Shown one piece after another: positions 5,881-58,805 of a DNA stretch of 64,000 nt. The notes below the pieces were generated by a model that was not told where the DNA came from, did no database searches, and saw only the letters and a list, made by a program, of their open reading frames with translations. The stretch is from Haliotis cracherodii (lineage: Eukaryota). The position numbers were made by a program, and so were the translations under genes. The stretch spans positions 51,488,134 through 51,552,133 of the forward strand of contig NW_027266343.1 of assembly GCF_022045235.1 (NCBI RefSeq). The letters run 5' to 3'. How positions within the stretch are numbered: the stretch's first letter is position 1; every line of letters starts with the position of its first letter.

Positions 5881-6030
5881 GGGGCGGTCGGGTTCGCTCG
5901 TCACGCCGAAGACCCGGGTTCGATTCCCGACATGGGTACAATGTGTGAAGCCCATTTCTGGTGTCCCCCGTCGTGATACTGCTGGAATATTGCTAAAAGC
6001 GGCACAAAACCATACTCACTCACTAACTCA
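5881..6030 (+). mobile_element. SINE family B, nested in the mariner-like element
   Basis: ggggcggtcgggttcgctcgtcacgccgaagacccgggttcgattcccgac...ccatactcactcact. Flanked by catat(a/c)gcaaat. Confidence 0.8.
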
Positions 6031-7036
6031 TATCGCAAATACAGTGATGAGAGAATTGTGAACATTCTGAGGAATGAATTGCTCATGACAAAGGATTCAG
6101 CAAGCTGGGTTGCAAGGCTTCTGACACCTCAGAAACGTTCCAGGTCCTCACATAAAAATTGGGGTCATTTTGAAACAGACACATCTGATTTTGTTGAGCG
6201 ATGTGTAACCATGGATGAGTCTTAGGTTCACCACTATCAGCCAGAGACTGAACGTAAGTCATAGCATTGGAAACATTCAACTTCTCCACCTCCGAAAAGT
6301 AGGAAAGATCGTTTTCATCAACTGATAATGCGATGGCTCCAGTTTTCTGGGATTTAAAAACATAGCTACATGTGTACATGTCAGTATTGTGCTCGGCTTT
6401 GGCAACTGTGAGAGAACATCAGGTCTAAATGACGTGGAAAACTCACTAAAACGTGTGTAGTTCCACAGGGACAATGTACCTGTTCATAAGTCTAGTGTCA
6501 CCACGGTTGCAACGTATGACTTTGACCCTGAACTCATTGAACATCTTCCATATTCACCTGATTTGGCACCGTGAGAATTCAACCACTTCCCAAACTGGAA
6601 GAAAAAACTCTCTGGCAAGTATTATGCAAATTTCGACGTAATTTCTACTGTGTGGGCTTTTTAATAGCACTAGGAGGAGGACGTTTATATGAGTGGGATC
6701 CAGGCACTCCAGCATCGTTGGGAGAAGTGGGTGGACCTCGGAGGTGATTAGGTTAAAAAATACTTAGCAACAAACTCCACCAACACAATCCATTAAAGTT
6801 AGAATTTTCAGCCGCCCCTCGTGTCACATCTCATCTGTCCACACGAGGAACGGTAGCAATACCCCATAAATAAAAGGCCACTTAAGTGGGGGACTGAGGG
6901 AAGATATAGCTGGGCGCAGAGTGACTCTCACTACTGAGGATTGTATATGGTGGCTGAATAGAGGGATGACTATCAAATTCAGATGTTCTCTTACTTACTT
7001 ATACCAAGCCATCATACACATTTAACATTGCAGACT

Positions 7037-7150
7037 TTGGCATTGTAGGTCACTCACTCACTCACCATCAGGGCATTTCTATTCAGGGTTGTTCTGCAGC
7101 GCTGGTATCGCCAAAGACGGATGCGGACGGTACTTGATATATCGACTATA
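7037..7150 (-). pseudogene. Diverged duplicate of SLC23-like exon 3 plus its (GTGA)n donor, with an in-frame stop
   Basis: The reverse complement ...cgatatatcaagtaccgtccgcatccgtctttggcgataccagcgctgcagaacaaccctgaatagaaatgccctgatggtgagtgagtgagtg is about 75% identical to exon 3 (35530-35615) and has TAG in place of TGG. Confidence 0.6.
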
Positions 7151-7449
7151 TGTAGGATTATTTCAAGTACATTACATGGCAGCCAGGATGTTTACTAGTA
7201 TATGCGTCTTGTTAAAATTTAACTTGGGACCATCGAGCATTTTAGTATCCTTGATTGTTGCAATAGACAAGACATGTTATGATCGATGCAGCATGGGTTC
7301 GATACGGTCGTATAAACAGTGATATACGTTTATGTTTTCTTATCACTCATAGTAGGAAGGTTAAACTAAGCATTGATTGATGACAGTCAAGGAAACCACA
7401 CACACTTGAAATCTTAACCTACGTTTTTCCTAAGATGTAAACCACGACA

Positions 7450-8300
7450 AGCAGGTTTATGATATAATATACCGACTGATGAAATCATAGTCAAGGTGTA
7501 AAGACGATAATTGTAAGCAAAGTTCATTTCTGGCCTGTAGATCAATATCTGGTGTGTACACTATGGTGAGACATGCACGACACCTTGATGGCATACAGTT
7601 GATTAACTTGCGAATGGTTGACCTTGATGTTGCCCGCCATTCCGCCTGAAGAGCTACCCCAAACTGGGCCACGTTCCCTGGCGTACGCTTCCGCCCGAGA
7701 ACATCCCGGCTCAATCCAATGTCTGTATGCCTTCTCGTCGGAGATAATCGGCGACGACCAACGCACGATGTAGTCTGGCATTGTAATCGATGAACAAGCG
7801 AATGGAACAACTACAGGTCGCAATATTTCGTCAACAATATTTCGTCGCTGGCCAGTCAAATGTCAATTCCCAACGACCAAATAAGTTTGCTTGTCATAAG
7901 TACTACAGCCCCACACCATGAAACTACGGAACAAACTACGTCGCTAAAAACGTTTTCTGCCATCTGTGAATCGAAGGCAAAACATAGATTCGTCTGAAAC
8001 TATTGTATAATGCCATTGGTGCATAGACAGAGCTTGGTGTTGCATAGCCCACCCCAATCTTTGCCGCCCATGGTTAGCTTTTGGGGCCACACCCTTGCTT
8101 TCTGGCGAGCTGCATAGAAATTCGCCTTTCTGTTATTGTACAGAATGCTCCATTGGTAACAGGGATATATTTGAATCTGTTGCGTATACATGTAATGAGA
8201 CGATTTTGTTCAGGGGTTGTTAGTTTAGGCCTGCCACGCCTAGGTCCATTGCAACCCAACACGTTTGACAGTGGAGAAATTACACTTTTTCATTTGCCAT
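7450..8300 (-). pseudogene. Tc1-like transposase pseudogene (frameshifted)
   Basis: Minus-strand ORF pieces: GRPKLTTPEQNRLI (HTH), WSILYNNRKANFYAARQKARVW (DDE start), GVALQAEWRATSRSTIRKLINCMPSRCRACL and ...HSVHTRY (C-terminus). Confidence 0.55.
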
Positions 8301-8989: not shown

Positions 8990-11300
8990 GACAGAGCATC
9001 CTTTCTCACCTAATGCCGAGAGTGGCTTGAATTAGCCTGGTTATGCCATTCAGTATTTATAAGAAAGTGCTTTTCATCTTCAACAGTGCGGATATTTATA
9101 GTATTAAAACAGTTTTTACAAATTCTTTCACATAGTAGGGTTGGTGGTTTAGAATAACGTCCAGTTTCTATAGCAAGGGGTAAACTTCCACATCGGAACA
9201 AAGCTAAAACACGGCGTTGGTCCTTATAGCTAAGCTTAAAAACATAACTTTCAACAGTTAAGTCTGATTTAAAAAGCCTCTTATGTTCTTAACCTATTAC
9301 CATTTATGGTATTTCTATCATCCCAAATATTATTTTTCCTTTCTGTTGATCATCGTGTCTGAAAATATCCATGCATTTTTGTATTTTGGCCTTTTAGGGA
9401 TGGAGGATAACAGGATTTTGTCTACATTAAACTTACAGGCAATTTTTTCAACTCTGCTTCTCCATGATGTTTTAGATCGTTTCGACATGTTAAACATAAG
9501 TTTTGCTTGTTTTACGAGTATTTCCACTTGAAAACTTAATGCACAGTTCAAAACATTCGTGACAGTTTTAACAATTTGCGAAATAAAACCCATATCGCCG
9601 TTAACAGGTAGGTTAGGTGTTCTCTTAACAACTCCAAGAAAGAAGCGACATGCTTTGTTCTGCAATGTGTTGATCTCTATGTATGTGTTAATGCCCCATA
9701 ATCCGAAGCCGTACAACATAACTGGTTCAACCAAAGTTTCATACAGCTTTTTAAACACATCATATGACATGCCGCCAGCAGCCTCAATATTAAAAAATAA
9801 TAATAAATAATAAATAAATGTTCTACTGGCATATTTATACTGTTCTCTGTCAGATTTCTTCATATCAAGATGTTCGTTCAAACAGATACCGAGGTATCTA
9901 TAACACTCGGCATACTCAGTGGTATTACATGTGAAAACAAAATAAGATTTCGTCACTGAAGGACATCTAAAATTTGCTATTTGTTTTACTTGCATTTACA
10001 GTTTATTTCAAATGGTTGCACCACACATCTAAAACATTCAACAGTGTCTGTAAAGACGTTGCGTCAGGCGCTATAATATATCACCTGCATTCATCAAAAT
10101 TGATCTCATTTCATCATCAAGTTGAACACCACAGTTGAGATCATTAATACAATGGGTTAAGTCGTTTATATAAACAGCAAATAACATTGGGGATAACTTG
10201 CACCCCTGTTTGACACCAGACATCACTGGGAAAGCATCAGTAAAATGTTCATTGAACAACACAGTTAACATTGTCACAGAGAGATTGGATGGCATCTTAT
10301 ACCAAGTTGGAACAATTTAAACCACATGCATTCCCGATTAACGGTGTCGGATGTTGTTGTTTTGAAAAAAATCAACGAAGCAAACAAAAGTGGAATTTAT
10401 TTGGCTTTTTGTGTCTGACTTAAAGACGATAAAACATCAAGATGATCAATACTATCTCTGTTAGAACGGAAACCATTCAGTTCATCGACTAAATGTCATT
10501 TTCTCCAATCAATTGCTCAAACGAGTGTTAAGAATATCAGCACAAATCTTGCCAAGAACTGATATAAGGGTTATGCCCCGACATTCAATTGGGTTACGGG
10601 GATCACTCATGCCTTCATTCAACTTGGAGGGCACTACTCCGTTATTCAAACAATATTTGATGATTCTATGCAGTAATTCAACACAGGCAGAGTGCCGACG
10701 AACCTCAGAAGGTATATCAAGGCAACACGCCTTACCACGTTTAGCATTAAATCAGCTTTTTCGACTTCCAACCCGTCGACCGGTTTATTTAAGGCAGACA
10801 TATCTATATTTCTTTTGGTCATAGGTTAAAGATCTTTCATAAAAGTAAAAACTTCACTTTGTGAATCTTGTGGGGAGCTATATAAGCGATGGTAAGCACT
10901 TTTCCACTTATCAAGAACAACTTTGTTATCATAAAAAGCATTGCCGTTATCATCTATAACTTCAGAGGGAATTCTTTTCTTCCTGTCTTTTGCCAGACCA
11001 AACTTGCCAATAGATTTCCAAACATCTTTCCCTTCATGCTCTTTATATAACGTATCAAGTCTATTTTGCTCTTCAAGAGAATATGCACGTTTTGCCCTTC
11101 GGTTCATTTTGTCAAAGTCTTTCCCGCACTCTCTGTAAACAGCACGTAAATGTCGTTTAGTTAAAACAGTTTAACTTTCAACCACTCCCTTTCACGCTTA
11201 CAAACTCATTCCCACATGTCTTGAAGTTCATTGTTCCAATAAGGTTTAGATCTGCTCTTTTTGTTGTTTATATTACTTTTTGTGTTTGCTTTGTTTAGTT
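8990..11300 (-). mobile_element. Non-LTR retrotransposon (LINE) fragment: RT and C-terminal Cys/His domain, 5'-truncated and frameshifted
   Basis: The ORF at 10071-10295 contains GVKQGCKLSPMLFAVYINDL (RT motif). ORF 9330-9995 is the RT thumb/C-terminal region. ORF 9010-9201 is a Cys/His-rich tail homologous to the tail of the 45.0-46.6 kb LINE. Confidence 0.7.
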
Positions 11301-11794
11301 TAGTTTCCATCTCATCAATAATAATTTACTTTTCAGTCAAAGGCAAACTGCAACATATGAGCGTTGGGTCGTTAATGCGAACGGCCGCTAGGAATGTATT
11401 TGTCGAGAGTTAGTCCAGCCATGGGAATGAAAGAATATTATTATTATGTTATATTATGTTAATATAAGGTTTCATCTCTCATGCCAAACATACGCTTCAA
11501 ATTTCAGTAACTCCCAAAAACAGACATTGTTATATAAGTTTTCAAACCATGTACGATGTATGGTCTTTGTTTCTAACATGAGGTGAAATTGGGTTTAACG
11601 TCACGTCCAAGATTATTGCAATCATTCTGAGACGTGCATGCACGTGTGTGTGTGGCTGCTTGTACTAGTCCGGACTGATGCCGATTTATAGTTCTAGCCC
11701 ACTGAGATGCCAGTTTAATATGAATTGCCCACTCAGACACAGTATTATGACTCCGAGCCATCCAGTCCTTGTTTTAGCCCCTTAATGCCGAACC

Positions 11795-13700: not shown

Positions 13701-14063
13701 CATGATCAGGAGGGGATGAGCTTTGGGCTAAATAGATGCTTATTATGGATGATTATTTATGGTTAGACGGATGAACGTGCGGGATCTGTATATAAAATGC
13801 GTTGGACGGCCAAAAAAAACCCCAATATTGATTTGGCTTTGTGGGGGATTGAGAGAGTATGTAAAACAATTTTACGATTCCGGCTATATCAGGAGCATGT
13901 GTTTATGAATCACTATCAAAAAGTGATAATAAAATATAACACGGGAACATGTGACACAAGTCAAAATAGGGAATTGCATCGTGCATGATTTTTTGTCACT
14001 GATATATCATATTTTTTGCCTAAATGTCTTATCCCCAAATTACACACGGGTGTTATATATGAG

Positions 14064-18484: not shown

Positions 18485-19140
18485 ATGATTCCGACAAGAT
18501 CATAAACACGTGTCCATGAATCACTATCCAATATTACACTATCATAAGCTTGTGTCCATGAATCACTATCCGATATTACACTATCATAAACATGTGTCCA
18601 TGAATCCCTATCCGATATTACACTATCATAAACATGTGTCCATGAATCACTATCCGATGTTACACTATCATAAGCATGTGTCCATGAATCACTATCCGAT
18701 ATTACACTATCATAAGCATGTGTCCATGAATCACTATCCGATATTACACTATCATAAGCATGGTTCCATGAATCACTATCCGATATTACACTATCATAAA
18801 CATGTGTCCATGAATCACTATCCGATATTACACTATCATAAACATGTGTCCATGAATAACTATCCGATATTACACTATCATAAGCATGGTTCCATGAATC
18901 ACTATCCGATATTACACTATCATAAACATGTGTCCATGAATCACTTTCCGATATTACACTATCATAAGCATGGTTCCATGAATCACTATCCGATATTACA
19001 CTATCATAAGCATGGTTCCATGAATCACTATCCGATATTACACTATCATAAACATATGTCCATGAATCACTATCCGATATTACACTATCATAAACATGTG
19101 TCCATGAATCACTATCCGATATTACACTATCCGAAACTCC
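18485..19140. repeat. 42-bp tandem repeat (gtccatgaatcactatccgatattacactatcataaacatgt), about 15 units
   Basis: Direct reading. The unit is a multiple of 3, so both strands give long artefactual ORFs (18469-19242 and 18510-19166). Confidence 0.9.
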
Positions 19141-19383: not shown

Positions 19384-19478
19384 GAGTTGTGTTGCCACTC
19401 ACTCACTCACTCACACACTCACTCAGGCACGCACTCACACACAGACACTCACCCACTCACTCACTCACTCACTCACTC
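19384..19478. repeat. Complex (CACT)n/(CA)n microsatellite
   Basis: Direct reading; resembles an expanded SINE tail. Confidence 0.7.
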
Positions 19479-20171
19479 ACTCAAGGAAACATACGGTCCT
19501 TGAAATATCGGCAATCGGGAATGTAAGATCATGACAAAATAAGAACAGTCACACAAGCCTGTTAAAATAACTCCTAAACAACAAAGGGAAGCAATCCGCA
19601 AAAGTATTGGGTTGGACATTTAGAAGTTAGAAGAATGTAAAGACATGAAACTTTTGGCTACAAAAGTTCTTTATTCTTTGTCACGGCTGTTCACAAATAC
19701 TTTTTTATCATTTCATCAGGACGGTTTTGAGGAGGAAAATCAATCAAAAAGTTGTAATCCGTTACAGGTTTAATGTCAGCAAACACGGATTTGACAAGGT
19801 CCTTAAGCGAGTATTGATTCACCAGAAGCCACGAAACTGTACAAACAGGGAATCTTACCGTTTCTTTGGTCTAAAACTCATTTGTCATATTTATCACATT
19901 CCATAAAACCACGACAGGAAATCCTGACACAATGGTAGTCAATATTGTCAATAATAAAACATGATGTTGGTGTGAACAAGCAATGCAACAGTGAGAGGAT
20001 CAATGTTTCTCTGTGGTTATGAAGATTGTCATTTAATGTCTCCGTGATACAAGGTACATCTTGATCGTATAAATAATATTGCAAAAATGGTAACAAAACA
20101 TAACACAATGATCTTATTGATAAAATCATTATTGCTAAATGTTATGGTTATCTAAGACTCAATTATCGCAA

Positions 20172-23365: not shown

Positions 23366-24098
23366 CTGAAAATAGAAAGAACCGTGTTGAAGTGTTTTGT
23401 TTGCTTCACGCCGTAGTCCGGGTTTACCACGGCTGCCTATAAATCGTGGCCAGGCAGACCAGTGGTTGAAAAAAATAGCATCGGGACACTATGACACGCA
23501 ATCAGTCAAGTCACTGTCCGACCCCATTCAACCCCATCTTACTCAATGGTAAGCTGACCACCTACTTTTATCGAGTACCGATGACACCTGATCCACTGCC
23601 AATGAATAGTCATGTCCAGAAAATGAGTGCCACGGTACAGTAGCTCACCTGGGTATGTAATTTAAAGTGTCAACAAAGACTTGTCAAACGATCCTGCCAG
23701 CATTGAGTTTCCTATATTTCAGAATAAATACTCTGGACTAACACCTTTTTAAGAGGAGAAGCCGAGAGAGCCGAAAGTGCATTTTTGAGAATTTCGAGGT
23801 TTAGAAACTCTGAAGGTCAACTGAAGGTCAAAATGTAAAATGTCGTGAGATCGGAACGTATGTGTTGCTCCCCACTACAAAGAAAATTCCAAAATGCATG
23901 ACATTTTGAAATAAACAGGTTGAGAAGAGGCAGTAAGAAGTTACAACCTTCAGATGGGTCAAAGGTCAAATCAAGGTCAAATTGTAAAACATCGCAAAAG
24001 CGGGACATATGTGGAACCCACAACTGACCACACATGGACCACATTCCATTGAATTTTGAAAAGATGTGGCTGAGGGGGGGTGGGGGGTGGGGGGGGTT

Positions 24099-24870: not shown

Positions 24871-25166
24871 GTTGTTAACCTGTCTGGGACTCGGCATTAA
24901 GGGTCTAAAACAAGGACTTGTCAGCTCGGAGTCGGTATAGTGTGTCTGAGCGGGGTATTCATGTCAAACTGCGGCATGGTATCTCAGTGAGCTAGCACTA
25001 TAAATCGACATCAGTCCGGACAAGTACAAAAACATGCAATAATCTTGGACGCGACGTTAAACCCAGTTTCACCTCCCCTCCCCTTTTTCTCCGTCCGATC
25101 AATTTTGACAACGCCAGCCATAAGATGTACTTAATGCATGTAGGTTAAACAAAACAACCTCCATAC

Positions 25167-27345: not shown

Positions 27346-27487
27346 GTGAGTGAGTGAGTTAGCATGTTTTTTCACCGCTATTGGCACCATTCCGGCAATA
27401 TCATGGCGGGGAACATTGTACCCATGTAGGGAATCGAACCCGGTTCTTCGGCGCGACGGGGGAACGCTTTAACCACTAGGCTACATC
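27346..27487 (-). mobile_element. SINE family B in the SLC23 intron between exons 8 and 9
   Basis: TSD tatctcaat on both sides. Confidence 0.8.
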
Positions 27488-28370
27488 CCCGACCCCCTCA
27501 TCTCAATGTTCAGCTTCAGAGAGATCTAGTTGTCGAAAGAAACAAAATGAAACTAAAACACAAAAAATACCTTTGGTTAAAAAAAACTAACAGCTTGATT
27601 GTTGTTTATTCTTCAAAACGATTTCGTCAACAATTTAAATTCAATATTAATAAGTAATTAATCCGCTCCTAAATTAAATCAACAATCAAATCGGAAAATA
27701 ACAAATGTTCACTGCACACTAGAACGTTGGGAAGAGCTTGTTGCTATGTGTGTAGAATTTAACCAAAAAAAACCATTCTATTTGTTCATATCTTATTTAA
27801 ACATCCGACAAATCATGTTTGGTCATCCTTTGTAACAATTGATGACAATCATGAACTCAAATCAACTGTTTAATATATGGCAAGGATTGGGCAAATGTAA
27901 ATGGACAAACGCATGCACAAAAGTTCTTTCTGGGAATAAATTGCTCACGAAAATTAATTTGAAAGCCAAACATTCAATTTTACAGTTAGACATCATGATA
28001 GAAAGGTCGTACACAGGACAAGTAAGGTAGCTTCGCCTCTGGATTCTGAAACACCAGGTGTTCTGTGGGTCAAGCGAGTTATGTCAGCCAAGACCGTTTG
28101 TTACTCAAAATAGGATCATGAAACAGTCCATAACATAAATGTTCACGTGTGAATTATCGCTAAACGATAGCATACAAATTCATGTATTAAGTAAAAACGA
28201 TTATTGTGTAAATAAATGTTAGCACCGCCTCCGATCTTGGTGCAAATTTATTTTTGTCACAAAACCGCTACACGGACATTTTACGTAAATTTACTGGTAC
28301 TGCATTAGATGTGCATAAGATAACTTACTTATTTCCCCAACATTTTCAACAGATCACTAACCATTGCACC

Positions 28371-28625
28371 TGTTAAGATCCGGGGTAGAATAGGTCTTCA
28401 GCAACCCACGCTTGCCGTCAAAGGCGACTATGCGTGTCGTAAAAGGCGGTTAACGGGATCGGGTGGTCAGGCTCGCTGACTTTGTTGTAGCATGTCATCG
28501 TATCCCAACTGCGTAGATCGATGCTCATGGTGCCAGTCACTGGATTGTCTTGTCCAAACTCAATTATTTACAGACCGCCGTCATATAGCTGTAATATTGC
28601 TGAGTGGGGTGTTAAACAGAAGAAA
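28371..28625 (+). mobile_element. SINE family C in the SLC23 intron, 12 bp from the exon-8 donor
   Basis: Body consensus. The copy ends at 28625 and the exon starts at 28637. Confidence 0.75.
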
Positions 28626-28636
28626 TAGCTCACTAA

Positions 28637-28890
28637 CCTTTGACACAGATATCGCTGCGATATTTCCACTGTATGACGTTGTAGCATGTCCCGTGCCTAT
28701 CGCTCCGCCAAGTAGTCCGCAAAGACCTTCCACCAATATGCCTCTGTTGACAGCGTGATCAGGCGGTGGGTCGATTTGACATGCTTTCGCGGTGGCAAAA
28801 TAGTCCCCCACAGATTCAATCATGGACGCGCAAAAGGCAGACAGGAATCCAACAAAAACTGCTGGACTAAATAATGGTAGTCCAAACTGA
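28637..28890 (-). CDS. SLC23A-like: SLC23-family transporter, exon 8 (GQFGLPLFSPAVFVGFLSAFCASMIESVGDYFATAKACQIDPPPDHAVNRGILVEGLCGLLGGAIGTGHATTSYSGNIAAISVSK)
   Basis: Acceptor ctattgcag| and donor CAAAG|gttagt. The span is 254 bp, phase 1 to 0. It carries the conserved SLC23 signature around IESIGDYYACARL...PPPIHAINRGI...[21 protein letters not shown]. Confidence 0.9.
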
Positions 28891-29350: not shown

Positions 29351-29607
29351 ATTTAATGGTAACGTCGCAACAAATGCCTACATTGAAAATGTGCCGGTTT
29401 CTTATCTTTACGACGATGCAAACTGTATGGGAATTGTAAATCTAAATTGTGTACATATGCCATTCGTAGGTAGTTTTCTTCCATTAAATAAAGGTCGCCT
29501 AGATATAGCTGGTATCGTGTGTAACCTGTATTAAAATGCAACAACAACGAAAAGATTCTATATATTCTGTTATACAATGTTTGGTAGACAAGGCTTCACC
29601 TGGATAC

Positions 29608-29891
29608 TGGGGGCACGGGTGGCCCAGTCGTCTAAGGCGCTGCGGATCGCTGTGCAGAGTTGCGCCCCTTGGACACGCAAGAAAACCGTGGGTTCGAATC
29701 CAGGTTCGCCCCGATTATGTTTCTAGGTTTGTCAGCACCATACCCGTGCTCGTGGGTTTCGCCGAAGTGGTAAACGTCTGAGACCTGCGTCACTTCGGGC
29801 TTTCCTCCCACATTAAGCTGACATGTCGCGATATAACTGTAATATTGTTAAAAGCGGCGTTAAACCCAACTCACTCACTCACTCACTCACT
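29608..29891 (+). mobile_element. SINE family A inserted at the exon-7 splice donor of the SLC23-like gene
   Basis: Full-length copy. The 11-bp TSD cacctggatac at 29597-29607 and 29892-29902 contains the exon-7 end (minus strand GTATCCAG|gtg). Confidence 0.85.
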
Positions 29892-29894
29892 CAC

Positions 29895-30051
29895 CTGGAT
29901 ACGGGAAGTAGAACCAGGGCGTGCGCTCTATCAGCAACATCTTCACGTCCGTCCTTGCCTTGTAGCGGATGTTATCGGGGTCGTTTGGGAAGACGTCGGT
30001 GATGGTGAGGATGGCGGAGATAGCCCACATCACCAGGATGCTCAACAGAAC
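29895..30051 (-). CDS. SLC23A-like: SLC23-family transporter, exon 7 (VLLSILVMWAISAILTITDVFPNDPDNIRYKARTDVKMLLIERTPWFYFPYP)
   Basis: Acceptor tttgcag|GTTCTG. The donor CCAG|gtgagtgagtgag is supplied by the tail of an inserted SINE-A. The translation aligns to SVCT2 [51 protein letters not shown]. Confidence 0.85.
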
Positions 30052-34988: not shown

Positions 34989-35236
34989 TGCCCCCCTTTC
35001 GTAAATAGAAAATCTGAAATGTGTAACCTATAATTGTACGTGTCATTATTTCATAATGTCTTAACCGAAAATGGAAGGGAATAATGCACTTTTTTCTGTA
35101 AATATTAGCTTCCGCGGTTATGCGGGCGTCAAATCAGCTGTTTCAACGTGGTTGTTGTAATTAGAAACCTCAGACTGAAAGATCAGAATCGAATATTTTC
35201 TAAACTCATGGCATGCGTGGAAAGGTAATATGTAAT

Positions 35237-35336
35237 GGGGTCGGTGAGGTAGCCTAGTGGTTGAAGCTATCGGTCGTCACGCCGAAGACCCGGGTTCGGT
35301 TCCCCACATGGGTACAATGTATGAAGCCAATTTCTG

Positions 35337-35371
<35 letters not shown>

Positions 35372-35415
35372 ATATTGCTGGGATATCGCTAAAAGCGGCG
35401 TATAACCATACTCAC
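35237..35415 (+). mobile_element. SINE family B carrying an internal poly-C(30) expansion, about 115 bp from SLC23 exon 3
   Basis: Head ggggtcggtgaggtagcctagtggttgaagc...; the C-run at 35340-35372 replaces the usual cccccgccg. Confidence 0.75.
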
Positions 35416-35529
35416 CATATAAGTAATGTTTTTTAGAAAATATTCGGGTTCAATATGATTTTTTCGAGTATCAAATACTCAATAACACCTGCAATTCCGT
35501 AACTCTTTCCCACTCACTCACTCACTCAC

Positions 35530-35615
35530 CATCAGGGCATTTCCACTCAGGGTTGTTCTGCAGGGCTAGAAGTGCCGGAAAGAAGGAGGCTGATGGCCCT
35601 TGATAGATCGGCAGT
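35530..35615 (-). CDS. SLC23A-like: SLC23-family transporter, exon 3 (RLPIYQGPSASFFPALLALQNNPEWKCPD)
   Basis: Acceptor ttttccag|; the donor CCTGATG|gtgagtgagtgagtgagtggg lies inside a (GTGA)n run. Phase continuity with exons 2 and 4 holds. The translation aligns to SVCT2 [27 protein letters not shown]. Confidence 0.8.
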
Positions 35616-35940: not shown

Positions 35941-36660
35941 AGACATTTTCGTGTCTCTGGTCTGAGGCAATAGGAACTAAATCGACAAAACCCTTTCCAA
36001 GACATGGAAGGACATGCTTCGAGGACAGCATGAGTTCCACAGAGTAGCGTAAAAAGATAACGGTCGTGTTTTCTAATCAAGGACACGAAGACGCCTAACA
36101 CAGGCATTGATTGACGACAGGCAATGTCACAGTTTCCTTGGTCATAGTTTGTATTTACAATACACGGATACAGCTTTTTGAGAAAAGTGCATTTTGTGAT
36201 TTTACAATTTTTGCAACTATCTATATGAACGAATGTTTTATTGTTCAGAATGGACCATTTTGTTTTCATATGGTAAACTCAAAGTCAGTTATCGCTTTTT
36301 GAGACAATGTTAGTTCTATTCAGTGGGATCGAACCTGCAACTCTCGTATCTGTAGTCTGGTGAGTGAACCACTAGGCTAAAGAGCTGCTGATAAATCACA
36401 ATGCTTTTAAGAATCTCATTTTTTCAAGCACATGTTCGCCAGCACGAGATATATTACGTCCGTTTCCTGAGGTTCAAGGGGAGTGTTGGAATATAATTTC
36501 TTTTGATAAAGTTGTTTCAGATTTGTTACGGTTTATAAGACATATATTCTCTCAGGTTTGGTTAATAATATAAACACTAGGGGCCTGCCATCGGGTTTGT
36601 CCATCTCCCCCGTGTTGACATTGTTAACCAAACCCTCGGGTTTGCCCTTTATCTTCTCAC

Positions 36661-36818
36661 CTGATACCGACAACCGTTTGAAGTAGCGTGGTTAAGCCAC
36701 TCATCAGCAGTGTTGAGGAAAGTAGCTTCGATCTGATTGGACTGTCATAAGCTGCGCACACAGCGTCTGAGATGATGAAGGCAGTGGCTACCGTGAAGGC
36801 AAGGTTCATCATGATGTG
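36661..36818 (-). CDS. SLC23A-like: SLC23-family transporter, exon 2 (HIMMNLAFTVATAFIISDAVCAAYD...LLQTVVGIR)
   Basis: Acceptor ccccttgcag| and donor |gtgagaag were read from the sequence. Phase is 0 to 2. The translation aligns to SVCT2 [23 protein letters not shown]...TLLQTTFGCR. Confidence 0.85.
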
Positions 36819-38334: not shown

Positions 38335-41276
38335 ATAACCAACTCTCTAATGATGAAGTAAGTCACCAGCTCTCTCCAATGATGAAGTAAGTCACCAACT
38401 CTCTCTAATGATGAAGTAAGTCACCAACTCTCTCTAATGATGAAGTAAGTCACAAACTCTCTCTAATGATGAAGTAAGTCATCCACTCTCTAATGATGAA
38501 GTAAGTCACCAACTCTCTAATGATGAAGTAAGTCACAGCTCTCTCCAATGATGAAGTAAGTCACCAACTCTCTCTAATGATGAAGTAAGTCACCAGCTCT
38601 CTCCAATGATGAAGTAGGTCACCAGCTCTCTCTAATGATGAAGTAAGTCATCCACTCTCTAATGATGAAGTAAGTCACCAACTCTCTAATGATGAAGTAA
38701 GTCATCCACTCTCTAATGATAAAGTAAGTCATCAACTCTCTAATGATGAAGTAGGTCACCAGCGCTCTCCAATGATGAAGTAGGTCACCAGCTCTCTCCA
38801 ATGATGAAGTAGGTCACCAGGTCTCTCTAATGATGAAGTAAATCAACCACTCTCTAATGATGAAGTAAGTCATCAACTCTCTAATGATGAAGCAAGTCAC
38901 CAACTCTCTGTAATGATGAAGTAAGTCACCAACTCTCTCTAATGATGAAGTAAGTCACCAACTCTCTCTAATGATAAAGTAAGTCACCAACTCTCACAAA
39001 TGATAAAGTAAGTCACCAACTCTTTCTTATGATAAAGTAAGTCATCCACTCTCTAATGATGAAGTAAGTCACAACTCTCTAATGATGAAGTAAGTCACCA
39101 ACTCTCTCTAATGATGAAGTAAGTCACCAACTCTCTCCAATGATGAAGTAGGTCACCAGCTCTCTCCAATGATGAAGTAGGTCACCAGCTCTCTCCAATG
39201 ATGAAGTAAGTCAACCACTCTCTAATGATGAAGTAAGTCACCAACTCTCTAATGATGAAGTAAGTCACCAACTCTCTTTAATGATGAAGTAAGTCACCAA
39301 CTCTCTCTAATGATGAAGTAAGTCACCAACTCTCTCTAATGATAAAGTAAGTCACCAACTCTCACAAATGATAAAGTAAGTCACCAACTCTTTCTTATGA
39401 TAAAGTAAATCACCAACACTCTCTAATGATAAAGTAAGTCACCAACTCTCTAATGATGAAGTAAGTCACCAACTCTCTTTAATGATGAAGTAAGTCACCA
39501 ACTCTCTCTAATGAAACAGTAAATAACCAACTCCCTCTTATGATAAAGTAAATAACCAACTCTCTCTAATGAAACAGTAAATAACCAACTCCCACTTATG
39601 ATGAAGTAAGTCACCAACTCTCTCTAATGATGAAGTAAGTCACAAACTCTCTCTAATGATGAAGTAAGTCATCCACTCTCTAATGATGAAGTAAGTCACC
39701 AACTCTCTAATGATGAAGTAAGTCACAGCTCTCTCCAATGATGAAGTAAGTCACCAACTCTCTCTAATGATGAAGTAAGTCACCAGCTCTCTCCAATGAT
39801 GAAGTAGGTCACCAGCTCTCTCTAATGATGAAGTAAGTCATCCACTCTCTAATGATGAAGTAAGTCACCAACTCTCTAATGATGAAGTAAGTCATCCACT
39901 CTCTAATGATAAAGTAAGTCATCAACTCTCTAATGATGAAGTAGGTCACCAGCTCTCTCCAATGATGAAGTAGGTCACCAGCTCTCTCCAATGATGAAGT
40001 AGGTCACCAGCTCTCTCTAATGATGAAGTAAGTCAACCACTCTCTAATGATGAAGTAAGTCACCAACTCTCTAATGATGAAGTAAGTCACCAACTCTCTT
40101 TAATGATGAAGTAAGTCACCAACTCTCTCTAATGATGAAGTAAGTCACCAACTCTCTCTAATGATAAAGTAAGTCACCAACTCTCACAAATGATAAAGTA
40201 AGTCACCAACTCTTTCTTATGATAAAGTAAGTCATCCAGTCTCTAATGATGAAGTAAGTCACCAACTCTCTAATGATGAAGTAAGTCACCAACTCTCTCT
40301 AATGATGAAGTAAGTCACCAACTCTCTCCAATGATGAAGTAGGTCACCAGCTCTCTCCAATGATGAAGTAGGTCACCAGCTCTCTCCAATGATGAAGTAA
40401 GTCAACCACTCTCTAATGATGAAGTAAGTCACCAACTCTCTAATGATGAAGTAAGTCACCAACTCTCTTTAATGATGAAGTAAGTCATCAACTCTCTCTA
40501 ATGATGAAGTAAGTCACCAACTCTCTCTAATGATAAAGTAAGTCACCAACTCTCACAAATGATAAAGTAAGTCACCAACTCTTTCTTATGATAAAGTAAG
40601 TCACCATCTCTCTCCAATGATGAAGTAAGTCACAACTCTCCAATGATGAAGTAAGTCACCAACTCTCTCTAATGATGAAGTAAGTCACCAGCTCTCTCCA
40701 ATGTTGAAGTAGGTCACCAACTCTCTCTAATGATGAAGTAAGTCATCCAGTCTCTAATGATGAAGTAAGTCACCAACTCTCTAATGATGAAGTAAGTCAT
40801 CCACTCTCTAATGATAAAGTAAGTCATCAACTCTCGAACGATGAAGTAAGTCACCAGCTCTCTCCAATGATTAAGTAAGTCACAACTCTCTAATGATGAA
40901 GTAAGTCACCAGCTCTCTCCAATGATGAAGTAGGTCACCAGCTCTCTCTAATGATGAAGTAAGTCATCCACTCTCTAATGATGAAGTAAGTCACCAACTT
41001 TCTAATGATGAAGTAAGTCATCCACTCTCTAATGATGAAGTAAATAACCAACTCCCTCTTATGAAAAATTAAATAACAAACTCTCTCTCATGATGAAGTA
41101 AATTACCAACTCTCTCCTTAGATATAGTAAGTAGCAAACTCTCTCTTATGATAAAGTAAAAAACCAACTCTCTCTAACGAAACAGTAAACAACCAAATCT
41201 TTCTTATGAAAAAAATTAAATAACCAACTTTTTCTCATGAAAAAGTAAATAACCAACTCTCTCTCTCTTATGATAA
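38335..41276. repeat. 29/30-bp satellite (about 100 units, aatgatgaagtaagtcaccaactctctct) with a 1190-bp higher-order repeat
   Basis: 38411 onward equals 39601 onward at an exact 1190-bp offset. ORFs 38619-38801 and 39809-39991 are identical artefacts. There is an inner ~368-bp sub-period (ctcacaaatgataaag at 38993/39361 and 40183/40551). The array continues briefly after the SINE at 41553-41575. Confidence 0.9.
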
Positions 41277-41552
41277 AAGGGGGGGGGGGGGGGCACGGGT
41301 GGCCCAGTCGTCTAAGGCGCCGCGATTCGCGTCCCTTGGGCTCGCCAGAAACCTATGATTGTGGGTTCGAATCCCGGTTCGCCCCAATTATGTTTCTAGG
41401 TTTGTCAGCACCATACCCGTGCTCGTGGGTTTCACCGAAGTGGTAAACGTCTGAGACCTGCATCACTTCGGGCTTTCCTCCCACATTAAGCTGACACGCC
41501 GCGATATAACTGGAATACTGTTAAAAGCGGCGTTAAACCCAACTCACTCACT
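41277..41552 (+). mobile_element. SINE family A inserted into the 30-bp satellite
   Basis: A G-run precedes the head. The satellite unit cttatgataaag is duplicated on both sides as a TSD (41265-41276 and 41553-41564). Confidence 0.85.
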
Positions 41553-42007: not shown

Positions 42008-43870
42008 ATTATGTGCCAAGTTTGGTGAAGAAATATAGTACGGTTTTCAAGATCTGCTCCGGAAACGAGGACTACCGCCATTTTCAGTCTAAATCAAAGT
42101 CGTTGCCATGGAAACTCAAAAAATAAAAAATAAATAAATTCCAAACTATCAAAAGGCACCAGTTCACCGCTAGATCTATCTATCTGCCAAGTTTGGTGAA
42201 GAAATATAAGTACGGTTTTCAAGATCTGCTCCGGAAACGAGATCTACCGCCATTTTCAGTATAAATCAAAGTCGTTGCCATTAAAAACTAAAAAAAACAA
42301 AAAAAGATTAAATCACAAAACTATCAAATAGCACCAGTTCACCACTAGATCTATCTATGTGCCAAGTTTGGTGAAGAAATATGGTATGGTTTTCAAGATC
42401 TGCTCCGGAAGCGAGGACTACCGCCATTTTCAGTCTAAATCAAAGTCGTTGCCGTGGAAAGTCAAAAAATAATATTTTGAAAAATCCCAAACTATCAAAA
42501 GGCACCAGTTCACCACTAGATCTATCTTTGTGCCAAGTTTGGTGAAGAAATATGGTATGGTTTTCAAGATCTGCTCCGGAAACGAGGACTACCGCCATTT
42601 TCAGTCTAATTCAAAGTCGTTGCCATGGAAACTCAAAAAATAATAAAAAATTAAATTCCAAACTTTCAAAAGGCACCAGTTCACCACTAGACCTATCTAT
42701 GTGCGAAGTTCGATGAAGTAATATAAGTACGGTTTTCAAGATCTGCTCCGGAAACGAGGACTACCGCCATTTTCAGCCTAAATCAAAGTCGTTGCCATGG
42801 AAACTCAAAAAATAATAAAAAATTAAATTTCAAACTATCAAAAGGCACCAGTTCACCACTAGATCTATCTATGTGCGAAGTTTGATGAAGAAATATAAGT
42901 ACGGTTTTCAAGATCTGCTCCGGAAACGAGGACTACCGCCATTTTCAGTCTAAATCAAAGTCGCTGCCATGGAAACTCAAAAAATAATATTTTGAAAAAT
43001 CCCAAACAATCAAAAGGCACCAGTTCACCGCTAGTTCTATCTATCTGCCAAGTTTGGTGATGAAATATAAATACGGTTTTCAAGGCTCAATGCCTTGGTT
43101 AAATTTTCTAAATAGCAAAAGGCACCAGTTCAGCATGACAGACCTGCAAAGTTTGATGAAAAAATATTGAACGGTTTTTGAGTTATGCAGCGGAAACAAA
43201 CCCTACCCTCACAGAACCTAAGTCCAACTTGTTGCAATGAAAACGTAAAAAAATTTTTTTTATAAAATTCCTAAATAGCAAAAGGCACCAGTTCAGTATG
43301 TGCCTAGTAGACATGCAAAGTTTTGTAAGAAAGTATTTAACAGTTTTTTAGTTATGCTCCGGAAACGAACACCACGCTTATAGAACCTAAGTTCAACTTG
43401 CTGCCATGGAAACGTAAAACATAAAAATTTATAAAACTCCTAAATAGCAAAAGGCACCAGTTCAGTATGTGTCTGGTAAACATGCAAAGTTTTGTAAGAA
43501 ATTATTTAACGGTTTTTGAGTTACGCTCCGGAAACGAACAACACCCTTATGGAACCTAAGTTCAACTTGTTGCCATGGAAACGTAAAACATAAAAATTTA
43601 TAAAACTCCTAAATAGCAAAAGGCACCAGTTCAGTATGTGTCTGGTATACATGCAAAGTTTTGTAAGAAATTATTTAACGGTTTTTGAGTTACGCTCCCG
43701 AAACGAACAACACCCTTATGGAACCTAAGTCCAACTTGTTGCCATGGAAACGTAAAACATAAAAATGTATAAAATTCCTAAATAGCAAAAGGCACCAGTT
43801 CAGCATGAGTCTGATAGACATGCAAAGTTTCGTAGAGAAATATTTGACGGTTTCTGGGTTATACTCCTGA
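42008..43870. repeat. ~175-bp satellite, two diverged subfamilies (alpha 42008-43080, beta 43080-43870)
   Basis: Alpha units start gccaagtttggtgaagaaatat at 42015, 42189, 42363, 42533, 42704, 42871 and 43047. Beta units start ctaaatagcaaaaggcaccagttcag at 43108, 43270, 43440, 43612 and 43780. Both share aaaaggcaccagttca, ctccggaaacga and gttgccatggaaac. Confidence 0.85.
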
Positions 43871-43877
43871 AACGATT

Positions 43878-50382: not shown

Positions 50383-51885
50383 ACTCACACGCAAAAGAAA
50401 CGCGAGTCGAGTATGCAGTATACATGTTATTTATTTTCAACAGTAAAGACAAGAAATACTAATAGGGCAAGATTGACAAAAATTTGACTGAAGACAGTTT
50501 AATGGATTAAAAGGCAGATGACATAATTGGTTTTTTTTGGCTTACGCAGTTTCGGGTCAATACCCAAAATGTCAGTCAATACCTGGTGTGACCACCATTA
50601 GCATTGATCACTGCCACACGTCTCCTGTACATTGAGTGGATCAGACGATTTGTGAAGGCCCTAGGGATCCTCCTGCACACATCCAGAGCAGCTGTGCGTA
50701 GTTCATCGGCAGTTGTAGGGACTGGGCGCACAATGTGCAGACGCCTTTGAACCTCACCCCACAAGTGTTCGATTGGGTTCAGATCAGGGCTGAGGGCTGG
50801 CCACGGTAGATGTTGTGTTGTTGCAGAAAGGCCATGGTAGCTCTGGCAACATGGGGACGAGCGTTGTCCTGCTTAAAAATGTGTTGTTGATGTTGTGCAA
50901 AAAATGGCACAACGTGGGGTCTGATCACTTGGTCGATATACCGCTGAGCAGTGACGCCGTGTCCCCGACCTTAACCAACATTCAGAAAGCACATGGGTCC
51001 AAGTCTCGCATTAAGTCCAATCCCTGCCCATATCATGACGCTAGGTCCACCCCATGGATCCCTTTCCACAACGTTTCTGTCAGCGAAACGATCACCTCGA
51101 CGCCGCCAAATTCTGACTCTTCCGTCTGCATGGGAGACACAAAAGCTACTTTCAGAGAAGATGACACGCCTCCACTCACGATGACGCCAACTGCGATGAC
51201 CCTGTGCCCACTGAAGTCGTGCTTGTCGATGCTGTGGTTGGAGAACAGGACGACGTGCTGGTCGGCGACATCAGAGGTTGTTGGAACGGAGACGTCGGAT
51301 CACAGTGTCCCGGCTAATGTGTCGATTATGTGTTCCTATGGTCTGTCGAGCACTTTCACTTGCATTTAGGAACAGATGTCGCTGGTGTTGACGGGTAACC
51401 TGCCGATCTTGTCGAGGTGTGGTGACCCTATGACGACCGCTCCGAGGAAGGTCATCTGTGGTCTGTGTAGCATTGTATCGATGCAGGAGACGGTAAATTG
51501 TGGTTATGTTAACTTTGAAATGACGGGCAACATCTTGGACAGACTCTCCAGCTTGCAAACGTCCGGTAGCCTGCATGAGTTGGGCGTGGCATTGTTGACC
51601 AAGGAGTGGTAGGTCCAAGAATCGGCCACAGTTTTATACCCACAACAGGTCGTGACAGTTCGTGCATTTTCGATTTCGCGAGAAATGGTTGCATGATACC
51701 CACATATTCATTGACATGGTGCGTTTGGGCGATTCGTTTTCTATGTTGCGTTTTTTACTCGGGCCAAAAATATTGATAACACCATCAGGCTTCACTACAT
51801 GCTAAAACTCGTATAAATTTATGGTTCCGTGTTTGTTACCTATTTGCTTAAAACCACTTGCGTTTCTTTTGCGTGTGAGTAAATA
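50383..51885 (-). mobile_element. Tc1-like DNA transposon with about 26-bp TIRs and a decayed transposase
   Basis: TIR tatactcacacgcaaaagaaacgc at 50383-50406 matches the reverse complement at 51860-51885. Minus-strand ORFs give an N-terminal HTH (51618-51271, ...HFKVNITTIYRLLHRY...RSGR) and a C-terminus ...AVINANGGHTRY (50764-50576). The middle is frameshifted. Confidence 0.75.
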
Positions 51886-55639: not shown

Positions 55640-56215
55640 ACCTTTCAAATGAATCACGAATCCATTTCTTTGACAGGAAACCATCTCGTCGTTATTATTT
55701 TCTCGACAAGAAACCATTTCGTCGGCAATATTTCCTCGACAAGAACCCATCTCGTCGGCATTATTTCCTCGACAAGAAACCATCTTGACGGCATTATCTC
55801 CTCGACAAGAAACCATCTCGTCGGCATTATTTCCTCGACAAGAACCCATCTCGTCGGCATTATTTCCTCGACAAGAACCCATCTCGTCGGCATTATTTCC
55901 TCGACAAGAAACCATCTCGTCGGCAATATTTCCTCGACAAGAAACCATCTCGTCGGCATTATTTCCTCGACAAGAACCCATCTCGTCGGCATTATTTCCT
56001 CGACAAGAACCCATCTCGTCGGCATTATTTCCTCGACAAGAAACCATCTCGACGGCATTATCTCCTCGACAAGAAACCATCTCGTCGGCATTATCTCCTC
56101 GACAAGAACCCATCTAGTCGGCAATATTTCCTCGACAAGAACCCATCTCGTCGGCATTATCTCCTCGACAAGAAACCATCTCGTCGGCATTATTTCCTCG
56201 ACAAGAACCTGCTAT
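55640..56215. repeat. 33-bp tandem repeat (catctcgtcggcattatttcctcgacaagaacc), about 17 units, inside the long-TIR element
   Basis: Direct reading. It generates ORFs 55397-56218, 55574-56113 and 55654-56190 on both strands. Confidence 0.9.
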
Positions 56216-58750: not shown

Positions 58751-58798
<48 letters not shown>

Positions 58799-58805
58799 GG
58801 GGGGG
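58751..58805. repeat. (GT)17 followed by G(25) compound microsatellite
   Basis: Direct reading. Confidence 0.9.

What the first reader, a model, noticed from the sequence alone, without database searches (positions are those of the whole stretch)
35507..35535. Exon-3 splice donor embedded in a (GTGA)4 run, and a paralogous pseudo-exon copy 28 kb away
Exon 3 ends CCCTGATG|gtgagtgagtgagtgagtggg. The same exon end plus the (gtga)n donor context is present, diverged by about 25% and carrying an in-frame TAG, at 7037-7150 on the minus strand. So the tetranucleotide run predates that duplication. It is unclear whether this is a stray exon duplication or the last recognisable piece of a decayed second SLC23 paralog. 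The duplicate lies in a Tc1/mariner nest.
Basis: seen in the sequence. Interest (0 to 1): 0.5.

Follow-up and report, generated by a model that had tools for sequence, protein, structure and literature searches.

The report
Decayed tandem copies of a transporter exon
The exon copy 28 kb away is real and belongs to a broken, transposon-riddled leftover of a duplicated SLC23-type transporter gene (a second, more decayed leftover lies at 19.5 kb), which is an ordinary kind of pseudogene rather than a new mechanism.

Summary
Window 35615-35530 (minus strand) is an 86-nt exon of a Xan_ur_permease/SLC23-family gene. It ends ...CCCTGATG|GTGAGTGAGTGAGTGAGTGGG.

A copy sits at 7149-7066 (minus) and is followed by the same (GTGA)4 run. 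It differs by 17 substitutions and a 2-nt deletion, carries TGG->TAG, and has lost its acceptor. The similarity is not confined to the repeat: with the run removed, nhmmer still gives E = 2.6e-12.

The copy is not a stray exon. Two more single-copy pieces lie collinear with it on the same strand: the 3' end and donor of exon 2 (9003-9052), and a stretch of intron 2 (7268-7390). It is therefore an unprocessed pseudogene fragment. A 3'-truncated LINE cuts it upstream, a Tc1-like relic sits inside its intron, and a mariner relic lies downstream.

I also found a third, more decayed exon-3 relic at 19574-19484 (minus). It abuts an 88-nt expanded (GTGA)n array. The run therefore most likely predates the duplications.

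Two caveats apply. A possible short gene-conversion tract covers the exon's 3' half. Most other (GTGA)n runs in the window are SINE tails.

A homologous gene in another species has a plain GTAAAC donor.

Verdict: ordinary, low interest. One side observation is mildly interesting: two SINEs inserted exactly at other donor sites of this gene.

The parts
35514..35529 (-). (GTGA)4 run that begins intron 3 of the intact gene. The first GT (35529-35528) is the splice donor. The run is followed by GTGGG.
   Evidence: Sequence; TRF 35511-35529, period 4, 4.8 copies.
35530..35615 (-). It encodes (R)LPIYQGPSASFFPALLALQNNPEWKCPD(G).
   Evidence: tblastn. The concatenated exons hit PF00860 at E = 3.5e-74. 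The homologous exon in L001 is 59% identical at protein level.
36661..36818 (-). Exon 2 of the intact gene, with donor CAG|GTGAGAAG.
   Evidence: tblastn and flanking splice signals.
7050..7065 (-). (GTGA)4 run following the exon-3 relic of the 7-9 kb pseudogene fragment.
   Evidence: TRF 7050-7065, 4.0 copies.
7066..7149 (-). Exon-3 relic (84 nt). It has TGG->TAG at 7081-7079, a 2-nt deletion between 7113 and 7112 that shifts the frame, and the acceptor CAG changed to CAT.
   Evidence: blastn 83.5%/97 nt, E = 6e-20; nhmmer without the run E = 2.6e-12; tblastn in two frames; coordinates.
7268..7390 (-). Relic of intron 2, collinear with 35998-36124 of the intact gene.
   Evidence: blastn 66.9%/130 nt, E = 2.5e-9 / 8.6e-10, single-copy in the window; nhmmer E = 1.6e-6.
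9003..9052 (-). Relic of the 3' end of exon 2 (peptide GITRLIQATLGIR) with its donor AG|GTGAGAA. The rest of exon 2 is missing.
   Evidence: tblastn; sequence; blastn 78%/50 nt, E = 3.8e-7, single-copy.
19484..19574 (-). Third, more decayed relic: about 55 nt of intron 2 plus the 5' half of exon 3 (RLPIFQGPYVS). The acceptor AG has changed to CG.
   Evidence: tblastn E = 0.035; nhmmer with the run excluded gives profile E = 3.3e-4, gene to relic 6.7e-3, relic to gene 2e-4, and it is the best non-self hit each time; three-way alignment A1.
19396..19483 (-). Expanded, impure (GTGA)n array (about 21 units) directly following the third relic. It replaces or overruns the 3' half of the exon.
   Evidence: TRF period 4, 21.5 copies, 83% matches; sequence and alignment.
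9060..11170 (-). LINE relic (RT ORF fragments). Its 3' part is missing where it meets the exon-2 relic, so this junction is a deletion or rearrangement breakpoint, not an insertion boundary.
   Evidence: ORFs; RVT_1 26 bits, E = 8e-6, below Pfam's cutoff. That the C-terminal motif ...VEDEKHFLI is typical of LINE ORF2 rests on my own knowledge.
7568..7913 (-). Frameshifted Tc1-like (DDE_3) transposase relic inside the relic's intron 2.
   Evidence: tblastn with the L001 ORF that carries a precomputed (weak) PF13358 hit: E = 3.6e-10 and 2e-7 in three frames. Direct Pfam and PDB searches found nothing.
6000..6750 (+). Mariner-type transposase relic downstream of the exon-3 relic (approximate limits).
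   Evidence: phmmer against PDB: SETMAR/Hsmar1 E = 1.1e-12, Mos1 E = 1.5e-10.

Best explanation
The window holds one apparently intact SLC23-family (Xan_ur_permease) gene on the minus strand, with recognised exons from 36.8 to 23.1 kb. Downstream of it, on the same strand, lie two dead leftovers of local (tandem, DNA-level) duplications of its 5' part. Relic C (9.05-7.05 kb) keeps the end of exon 2 with its donor, fragments of intron 2, the whole of exon 3 and the (GTGA)4 donor context. It is disabled by a stop codon, a frameshift, loss of the acceptor and truncation of exon 2, and it is interrupted by LINE, Tc1-like and mariner relics. Relic B (19.6-19.4 kb) keeps only about 90 nt around the exon-3 acceptor and an expanded (GTGA)n array. 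The (GTGA)4 run is a short microsatellite in register with the donor consensus G|GTGAGT. It was already present when the segment was duplicated, since it sits at the same place in all three copies. In the live gene it has stayed short: only the first GT gives the right frame, and read-through meets an in-frame TGA. In relic B, with no splicing constraint, it expanded about fivefold and overran the exon. Shown: the homology, collinearity, disabling lesions, TE interruptions and the three runs. Inferred: tandem duplication as the mechanism, the ancestral status of the run, and constraint on its length.
For: The gene is identified by Pfam PF00860 at E = 3.5e-74 on the concatenated exons, and L001 shows the same exon structure. 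Three collinear, same-strand, single-copy matches link 35.5-36.7 kb to 7.05-9.05 kb. The exon copy is significant without the repeat. Disabling mutations are documented. Intron sequence is retained, so the copy is not a retrocopy. Relic B rests. TE relics rest. No SINE body lies next to either run (nhmmer --max, E <= 10). Neutral-looking divergence is K2P 0.24-0.38, with intron identity of 67%.
Against: No copies of exon 5 or later exons were found anywhere in 1-23 kb. The duplications were therefore either partial or followed by large deletions, and I cannot say which. The last 34 nt of the exon plus the run are much more alike (2 differences in 50) than the first 52 nt (16 in 51). The max-chi-square permutation P is 0.009, or 0.058 for the exon alone. 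This could mean a later gene-conversion event copied the run into relic C rather than inheritance. Homology downstream of the run is not significant in either relic. The genome outside the 64 kb could not be searched.
Confidence: 0.8

Rival explanations
1. The (GTGA)4 at the exon-3 donor is not a home-grown microsatellite. It is the footprint of a retroposition event: the (TCAC)n tail of a SINE/LINE was inserted antisense at the donor by target-primed reverse transcription. The element body was severely truncated or later lost, and this happened before the duplications. This rival concerns only the origin of the run and is compatible with the pseudogene explanation.
For: About 11 of the 15 (TCAC)n runs of three or more units on the + strand are tails of SINEs with the 3' module ...AAAAGCGGCGTTAAACCCAAC(TCAC)n. 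In the same gene a SINE-A copy (29606-29894) sits exactly at another donor. Its 12-nt TSD GTATCCAGGTGA spans the exon/intron junction and its tail now supplies the donor CAG|GTGAGT. A second SINE (28367-28637) does the same at the next exon. (CACT)n-tailed SINEs are known in molluscs (PMC4758252).
Against: nhmmer with the SINE-A profile (--max, E <= 10) finds no SINE remnant in the 98 nt after the run in the gene or the 120 nt after it in relic C. The same search recovers a SINE-A copy at about 73% identity at E = 6.5e-43. No TSD can be recognised. GTGAGTGA is already two units of the repeat, so slippage from the donor consensus is the simpler origin.
Confidence: 0.15
2. Relics B and C are copies of a gene fragment (exon 2-intron 2-exon 3) picked up and moved by a transposable element, through transduplication, Helitron/Pack-type capture or LINE transduction. 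On this reading they are members of a low-copy repeat family rather than local tandem duplicates.
For: Both relics sit among TE relics. Relic C is directly joined to a LINE fragment at about 9055 and has Tc1-like and mariner relics next to it. Only the exon 2-3 part of the gene is represented.
Against: All three copies are on the same strand within 30 kb of each other. The LINE at the junction lacks its 3' end, which is the wrong polarity for an insertion or a 3' transduction. The run on the LINE's sense strand is (GTGA)n, the complement of the SINE-type (TCAC)n tail. No terminal repeats or TSDs bracket either relic. There are no further copies in the window.
Confidence: 0.07
3. A stray duplication of a single exon, the reader's other option, with no second paralog ever present.
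For: For relic B only the exon-3 region is detectable.
Against: For relic C, the copy the finding is about, the exon-2 end with its donor and an intron-2 segment are also present in the right order and orientation, 1.9 kb apart.
Confidence: 0.05
4. The similarity is a chance match or is driven only by the (CACT)n repeat.
For: None beyond the presence of the repeat.
Against: 81 nt of non-repeat sequence align. nhmmer gives E = 2.6e-12 with the run removed.
Confidence: 0.01

Closest known systems
Unprocessed (duplicated) pseudogenes and gene fragments left by tandem segmental duplication
   Same: Exon and intron sequence are retained in the parental order and orientation next to the parent gene. 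The copy carries a stop codon, a frameshift and splice-site loss. It has been invaded by transposable elements.
   Different: Only the exon 2-3 portion survives, twice. The rest of each copy is missing, either never duplicated or since deleted. Nothing about this is unusual for the class.
Splice-site-associated microsatellites (short tandem repeats seeded by the GTGAGT donor consensus)
   Same: The repeat unit GTGA is in register with G|GTGAGT. Each unit recreates a potential donor, and the run is short in the live gene.
   Different: Here the same run can be followed through three paralogous copies, and it has expanded about fivefold in the copy that lost splicing constraint. A homologous gene in another species (L001) has a plain CAG|GTAAAC donor and no run.
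Antisense SINE insertions at exon/intron boundaries whose tail becomes part of the splice signal (for example the canine PMEL 'merle' SINE, PMC7349775)
   Same: In this gene two SINEs lie antisense directly at donor sites, with TSDs spanning the junction. In one of them the SINE tail provides the new GTGAGT donor.
   Different: Merle involves a poly(A)/poly(T) tail at a 3' splice site and impairs splicing. Here a (TCAC)n tail lies at 5' splice sites and apparently preserves them. For the exon-3 run itself no SINE body is detectable, so this is a resemblance, not membership.
Mollusc tRNA-derived SINEs with tandem-repeat tails ((CA)n, (CAAA)n, (CACT)n; Matetovici et al. 2016, PMC4758252)
   Same: The window's SINE families have tRNA-like heads, a shared 3' module and (TCAC)n, (CA)n or (CAAA)n-like tails.
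   Different: I did not match the families to named families, and the organism is unknown to me.

Membership tests
SLC23 / NAT transporters (Pfam Xan_ur_permease, PF00860), for the parent gene | Significant match to the PF00860 profile above the gathering score | tested here: met
   The concatenated recognised exons score 250 bits, E = 3.5e-74, against a cutoff of 27. All 59 database hits to the exon-8 peptide carry PF00860.
SLC23 / NAT transporters, for the parent gene | NAT signature motif [Q/E/P]-N-x-G-x-x-x-x-T-[R/K/G] (recalled from the literature) | tested here: not met
   The gene has G-N-I-A-A-I-S-V-S-K and the L001 homolog has G-N-V-A-A-I-N-V-T-K. This is a divergent subfamily, so substrate specificity cannot be inferred. 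It does not bear on the pseudogene question.
Unprocessed (duplicated) pseudogene fragment | Homology to more than one exon of the parent, in parental order and orientation | tested here: met
   Exon-2 end 9003-9052 and exon 3 7066-7149 are both on the minus strand and collinear.
Unprocessed (duplicated) pseudogene fragment | Intron sequence and splice junctions retained (a DNA-level copy) | tested here: met
   The intron-2 piece 7268-7390 matches 35998-36124 (E about 1e-9). The donors AG|GTGAGAA and TG|GTGAGT are retained.
Unprocessed (duplicated) pseudogene fragment | Disabling lesions | tested here: met
   TAG at 7081-7079, a 2-nt deletion at 7113/7112, the acceptor changed from CAG to CAT, and exon 2 truncated at a LINE junction.
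Unprocessed (duplicated) pseudogene fragment | Not expressed or spliced into a functional mRNA | not testable with these tools
   No transcript data are available.
Processed pseudogene (retrocopy) | Introns absent, exons fused, poly(A) or tail and TSDs present | tested here: not met
   Exon 2 and exon 3 relics are 1.86 kb apart with recognisable intron sequence between them. No tail or TSD was seen.
Interspersed repeat / TE-captured exon family | Multiple dispersed copies in both orientations with element termini | tested here: inconclusive
   Within the 64 kb there are only three copies, all on the same strand, with no termini. The JGI metagenome scan found no match. The host genome is not available to me.
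SINE/LINE tail as the origin of the (GTGA)4 run | SINE 3' module (...GCGGCGTTAAACCCAAC) adjoining the run, with TSDs | tested here: not met
   There is no nhmmer hit at E <= 10 in 35416-35513 or 6930-7049. Compare the SINEs at 29606-29894 and 28367-28637, which do meet it.
Gene-conversion tract between gene and relic C | Significant clustering of identity along the alignment | tested here: inconclusive
   Differences are 16/51 versus 2/50. The max-chi-square permutation P is 0.009 with the run and 0.058 for the exon only. K2P is 0.38 versus 0.06.

The most novel reading that the evidence does not exclude
GTGA-containing 5' splice sites act as landing pads for the (TCAC)n-tailed SINE/LINE system of this genome. 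Target-primed reverse transcription would start from a nick right after ...G|GTGA, place the element antisense in the intron, and let its tail rebuild or even improve the donor (CAG|GTGAAG becoming CAG|GTGAGT). The exon-3 (GTGA)4 run would then be an old tail-only footprint of such an event, older than the duplications. If this were general, it would mean a retroelement whose tail mimics the splice-donor consensus can insert at exon borders without killing the gene.
Probability: 0.12. Interest if true: 0.5.

Novelty: new member of a known kind. Interest (0 to 1): 0.2.

Why it matters
It matters mainly for annotation. The 7-9 kb and 19.5 kb pieces should be labelled as SLC23-like pseudogene fragments. 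They should not be treated as exons of a second transporter gene or as alternative exons.

The locus also gives a small, clean illustration of how one short donor-site microsatellite behaves under splicing constraint (4 units) and without it (about 21 units). It also hints at short-tract gene conversion between a gene and its dead copy.

The side observation of SINEs inserted exactly at two other donors could be worth a genome-wide count, but that goes beyond this finding.

Tried and rejected
- **Repeat artefact or chance match.** Rejected: nhmmer with the run removed still gives E = 2.6e-12.
- **SINE-tail origin of the runs.** nhmmer --max with a SINE-A profile found no SINE remnant next to either run.
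- **Further exon copies.** I searched 1-23 kb and 37-64 kb by tblastn with the gene's own exon peptides, by Smith-Waterman with shuffles for exon 2, and by 300-nt chunk nhmmer scans. Nothing appeared beyond relic B and the three pieces of relic C.
- **TE ORFs.** Pfam scans of the Tc1-like and mariner ORFs, singly and as frame-joined reconstructions, found nothing. The PDB search found the mariner relic but not the Tc1-like one. The Tc1-like relic was supported only indirectly, through an L001 DDE_3 ORF.
- **Terminal inverted repeats** around the relic: nothing convincing.
- **Missing exons.** I found neither exon 1 nor the small exon expected between exon 3 and 32567. The exon numbering is therefore unverified. 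A direct exon 3 to 32582 junction that I considered is unlikely given the L001 acceptor position.
- **Identifying the organism** from protein clusters: no names or accessions were returned.
- **Exact-pattern scan** of JGI metagenome contigs for the conserved 42-mer: 0 hits.
- **Rfam and tRNA scans** of the window: nothing.
- **Full-length homologs.** The tblastn query used to locate exons first was human SVCT1 written from memory. It served only as a lead; exon calls rest on the window's own sequence, Pfam and L001.

Full report
**1. The observation**

Read on the minus strand, window 35535-35507 is CCCTGATG|GTGAGTGAGTGAGTGAGTGGG. The four perfect GTGA units occupy 35529-35514. Tandem Repeats Finder reports 35511-35529 with period 4.

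The 86 nt upstream (35615-35530) follow a TTTTCCAG acceptor and encode (R)LPIYQGPSASFFPALLALQNNPEWKCPD(G). This aligns with the [12 protein letters not shown]...WKCP segment of SVCT-type transporters (the query was human SVCT1 written from memory and was used only as a lead).

Eight further exons were recognised on the minus strand:
- 36818-36661
- 32567-about 32386
- about 31620-31506
- 30051-29896
- 28889-28638
- about 27263-26988
- 25263-25165
- 23366-about 23100

These rest. Concatenated with exon 3, they match Pfam Xan_ur_permease at E = 3.5e-74.

A 20-kb contig from another organism (L001, ENA ERZ25071447 ctg86816) carries a homolog with the same exon series at 52-65% protein identity. 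I could not find exon 1, nor a small exon that reading-frame phase requires between exon 3 and 32567.

**2. The copy at 7 kb is real and is more than the repeat**

blastn aligns 35514-35610 with 7050-7144 on the same strand, at 83.5% over 97 nt and E = 6e-20. The relic exon is 7149-7066. Against the 86-nt exon it shows:
- 17 substitutions in 84 aligned positions (K2P 0.24);
- a 2-nt deletion between 7113 and 7112;
- TGG->TAG at 7081-7079;
- the acceptor CAG changed to CAT.

These are documented. The run at 7065-7050 is again exactly (GTGA)4. With the run cut out of the query, nhmmer still finds the copy at E = 2.6e-12, and 4e-12 in the reciprocal search.

**3. It is a multi-part pseudogene fragment, not a stray exon**

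I compared 22-42 kb with 1-22 kb at word size 7. Almost all of the 118 matches are multi-copy SINEs. Three are single-copy, on the same strand and collinear:
- exon 3, as above;
- 35998-36124 with 7268-7390, inside intron 2 (67% over 130 nt, E about 1e-9);
- 36654-36703 with 9003-9052 (78% over 50 nt, E = 3.8e-7).

The last piece is the 3' end of exon 2 with its donor: relic GITRLIQATLGIR|GTGAGAA against gene GLTTLLQTVVGIR|GTGAGAA.

Retained intron sequence and splice junctions make this a DNA-level (unprocessed) copy. Upstream of 9052 the relic runs straight into LINE ORF fragments. These give RVT_1 at 26 bits, below Pfam's cutoff, and end in the C-terminal ...VEDEKHFLI motif. The LINE lacks its own 3' end there, so the junction is a deletion breakpoint rather than an insertion site.

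The relic's intron 2 is 1.86 kb against 1.04 kb in the gene. It contains a frameshifted Tc1-like transposase relic at 7568-7913, supported by tblastn with an L001 ORF annotated DDE_3 (E = 3.6e-10). Direct Pfam and PDB searches on that relic failed. Downstream of the relic, about 6.0-6.75 kb (+) is a mariner-type transposase relic matching SETMAR at E = 1.1e-12 and Mos1 at 1.5e-10. The 'Tc1/mariner nest' is therefore correct.

**4. A third relic**

tblastn with the gene's own exon peptides gave an unexpected hit at 19517-19485 (minus): RLPIFQGPYVS against RLPIYQGPSAS. It directly abuts an 88-nt impure (GTGA)n array at 19483-19396 (TRF 21.5 units).

With the microsatellite excluded, nhmmer places 19574-19484 as the best non-self hit in every direction:
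- profile of gene plus relic C: E = 3.3e-4;
- gene alone: E = 6.7e-3;
- relic B to gene: E = 2e-4, reaching about 55 nt into intron 2.

The acceptor has changed from AG to CG. In the three-way alignment the array replaces or overruns the 3' half of the exon. No exon-2 piece accompanies it.

At least the exon 2-3 part of the gene therefore existed three times on this strand, at 35.6, 19.5 and 7.1 kb. No copy of any later exon is detectable in 1-23 kb. I cannot tell partial duplication from whole-gene duplication followed by deletion. The window also ends 7 kb beyond relic C.

**5. The (GTGA)n run**

In the live gene only the first GT gives the required phase, and reading on meets GGT GAG TGA, an in-frame stop. 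This is consistent with the run being held short there and expanding in relic B.

Two cautions apply.
- *Uneven identity.* Identity between gene and relic C is uneven: 16 differences in the first 51 columns and 2 in the last 50 (exon 3' half plus run). K2P is 0.38 against 0.06. The max-chi-square permutation P is 0.009, or 0.058 for the exon only. A short gene-conversion tract could explain this, and it would make relic C's run a copy rather than an heirloom. Relic B still argues for antiquity.
- *SINE tails.* In this window (GTGA)n/(TCAC)n runs are mostly SINE tails. Two tRNA-headed SINE families share the 3' module ...AAAAGCGGCGTTAAACCCAAC(TCAC)n. I therefore tested whether the exon-3 run is an old SINE tail. 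nhmmer --max with the SINE-A profile finds nothing at E <= 10 next to the run in either the gene or relic C, although it detects a copy at about 73% identity at E = 6.5e-43. That origin is not supported, though a tail-only insertion cannot be excluded.

The run is lineage-specific. The homologous exon in L001 ends CTCACAG|GTAAAC, and that 20-kb locus has no (GTGA)3+ run at all.

**6. Side observation**

Two other donors of the same gene are occupied by antisense SINEs.
- *SINE-A (29606-29894).* It is flanked by a 12-nt target-site duplication, GTATCCAGGTGA on the sense strand, which spans the exon/intron junction. The pre-insertion donor CAG|GTGAAG now lies about 300 nt downstream, and the SINE's tail supplies CAG|GTGAGT next to the exon.
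- *SINE-B (28367-28637).* It shows the same arrangement at the next exon, with TSD AA(A/T)GGTTAGTGA.

Both insertion points come right after GTGA on the sense strand. A rough estimate suggests a GTGA target preference alone could account for two such hits. I therefore treat this as a curiosity that motivates a genome-wide count, not as a demonstrated mechanism. (CACT)n-tailed SINEs are described in molluscs (PMC4758252). A SINE whose tail becomes part of a splice signal is known from the canine merle allele (PMC7349775).

**7. Comparison with the known, and verdict**

Every defining feature of an unprocessed pseudogene fragment that I could test is met: several exons in order, intron and junction retention, and disabling lesions. 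The features of a retrocopy are not met. A repeat-family or captured-fragment origin cannot be excluded without the genome, but it is disfavoured by the shared strand, the proximity, the lack of termini and the absence of further copies.

This is a new instance of a very common kind of object. Interest is low (0.2). The most novel reading still open, splice donors as landing pads for donor-mimicking SINE tails with the exon-3 run as an old footprint, has a low probability (about 0.12) and would be moderately interesting if true.

Noticed in passing
window 29597-29906 (SINE-A body 29606-29894, + strand): An antisense SINE sits exactly at the donor of the exon ending at 29896. A 12-nt TSD, GTATCCAGGTGA on the sense strand, spans the exon/intron junction. 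The SINE's (TCAC)6 tail now provides the donor CAG|GTGAGT, and the old donor CAG|GTGAAG is displaced about 300 nt into the intron.
   Followed up: partly
window 28354-28641 (SINE-B body about 28367-28637, + strand): A second antisense SINE, of a different family with a (CAAA)n-type tail in its other copies, abuts the donor of the exon ending at 28638. Its TSD, AA(A/T)GGTTAGTGA, spans AAG|GTTAGTGA. As in the first case, the insertion point follows GTGA.
   Followed up: partly
window 28650-28680 (minus strand, exon 28889-28638): The NAT/SLC23 signature motif is divergent in this gene (GNIAAISVSK instead of [QEP]-N-x-G-x4-T-[RKG]). The L001 homolog shares the deviation (GNVAAINVTK). This suggests a distinct SLC23 subfamily of unknown substrate.
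   Followed up: no
window 9055-9065: The LINE relic (about 11170-9060, minus) is truncated at its 3' end where it meets the exon-2 relic. This is the opposite of the usual 5' truncation, so a deletion has fused the two.
   Followed up: partly
window 50579-51039 (minus): A better-preserved Tc1-like (DDE_3) transposase relic, 49% identical over 77 aa to an L001 DDE_3 ORF.
   Followed up: no
window 35340-35370; also 24074-24096, 41279-41293, 58782-58805: Long homopolymer runs (C31, and G15-G24) lie at or inside copies of a tRNA-headed SINE. Inside intron 3 the C31 run interrupts the SINE at 35228-35415.
   Followed up: no
window 38343-41264; 12564-13701; 42010-43875; 18499-19131; 55664-56207: Large tandem arrays: 29 nt x 103, 22 nt x 52, about 170 nt x 11, 42 nt x 15 and 33 nt x 16.5. 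The 22-nt array produces long spurious ORFs (up to 308 aa) on the minus strand.
   Followed up: no
window 24901-25075 and 11580-11781: A two-copy inverted repeat (nhmmer E = 1e-28) links an intron of the gene with the region just upstream of the LINE relic. It is probably an unclassified TE fragment.
   Followed up: no
window 27346-27357: A decayed SINE in the gene's sense orientation puts (UCAC)3 into the pre-mRNA about 75 nt upstream of the exon starting near 27263. It is complementary to the (GUGA)n donor runs of exon 3 and of the exon ending at 29896. Whether they pair is untested.
   Followed up: no
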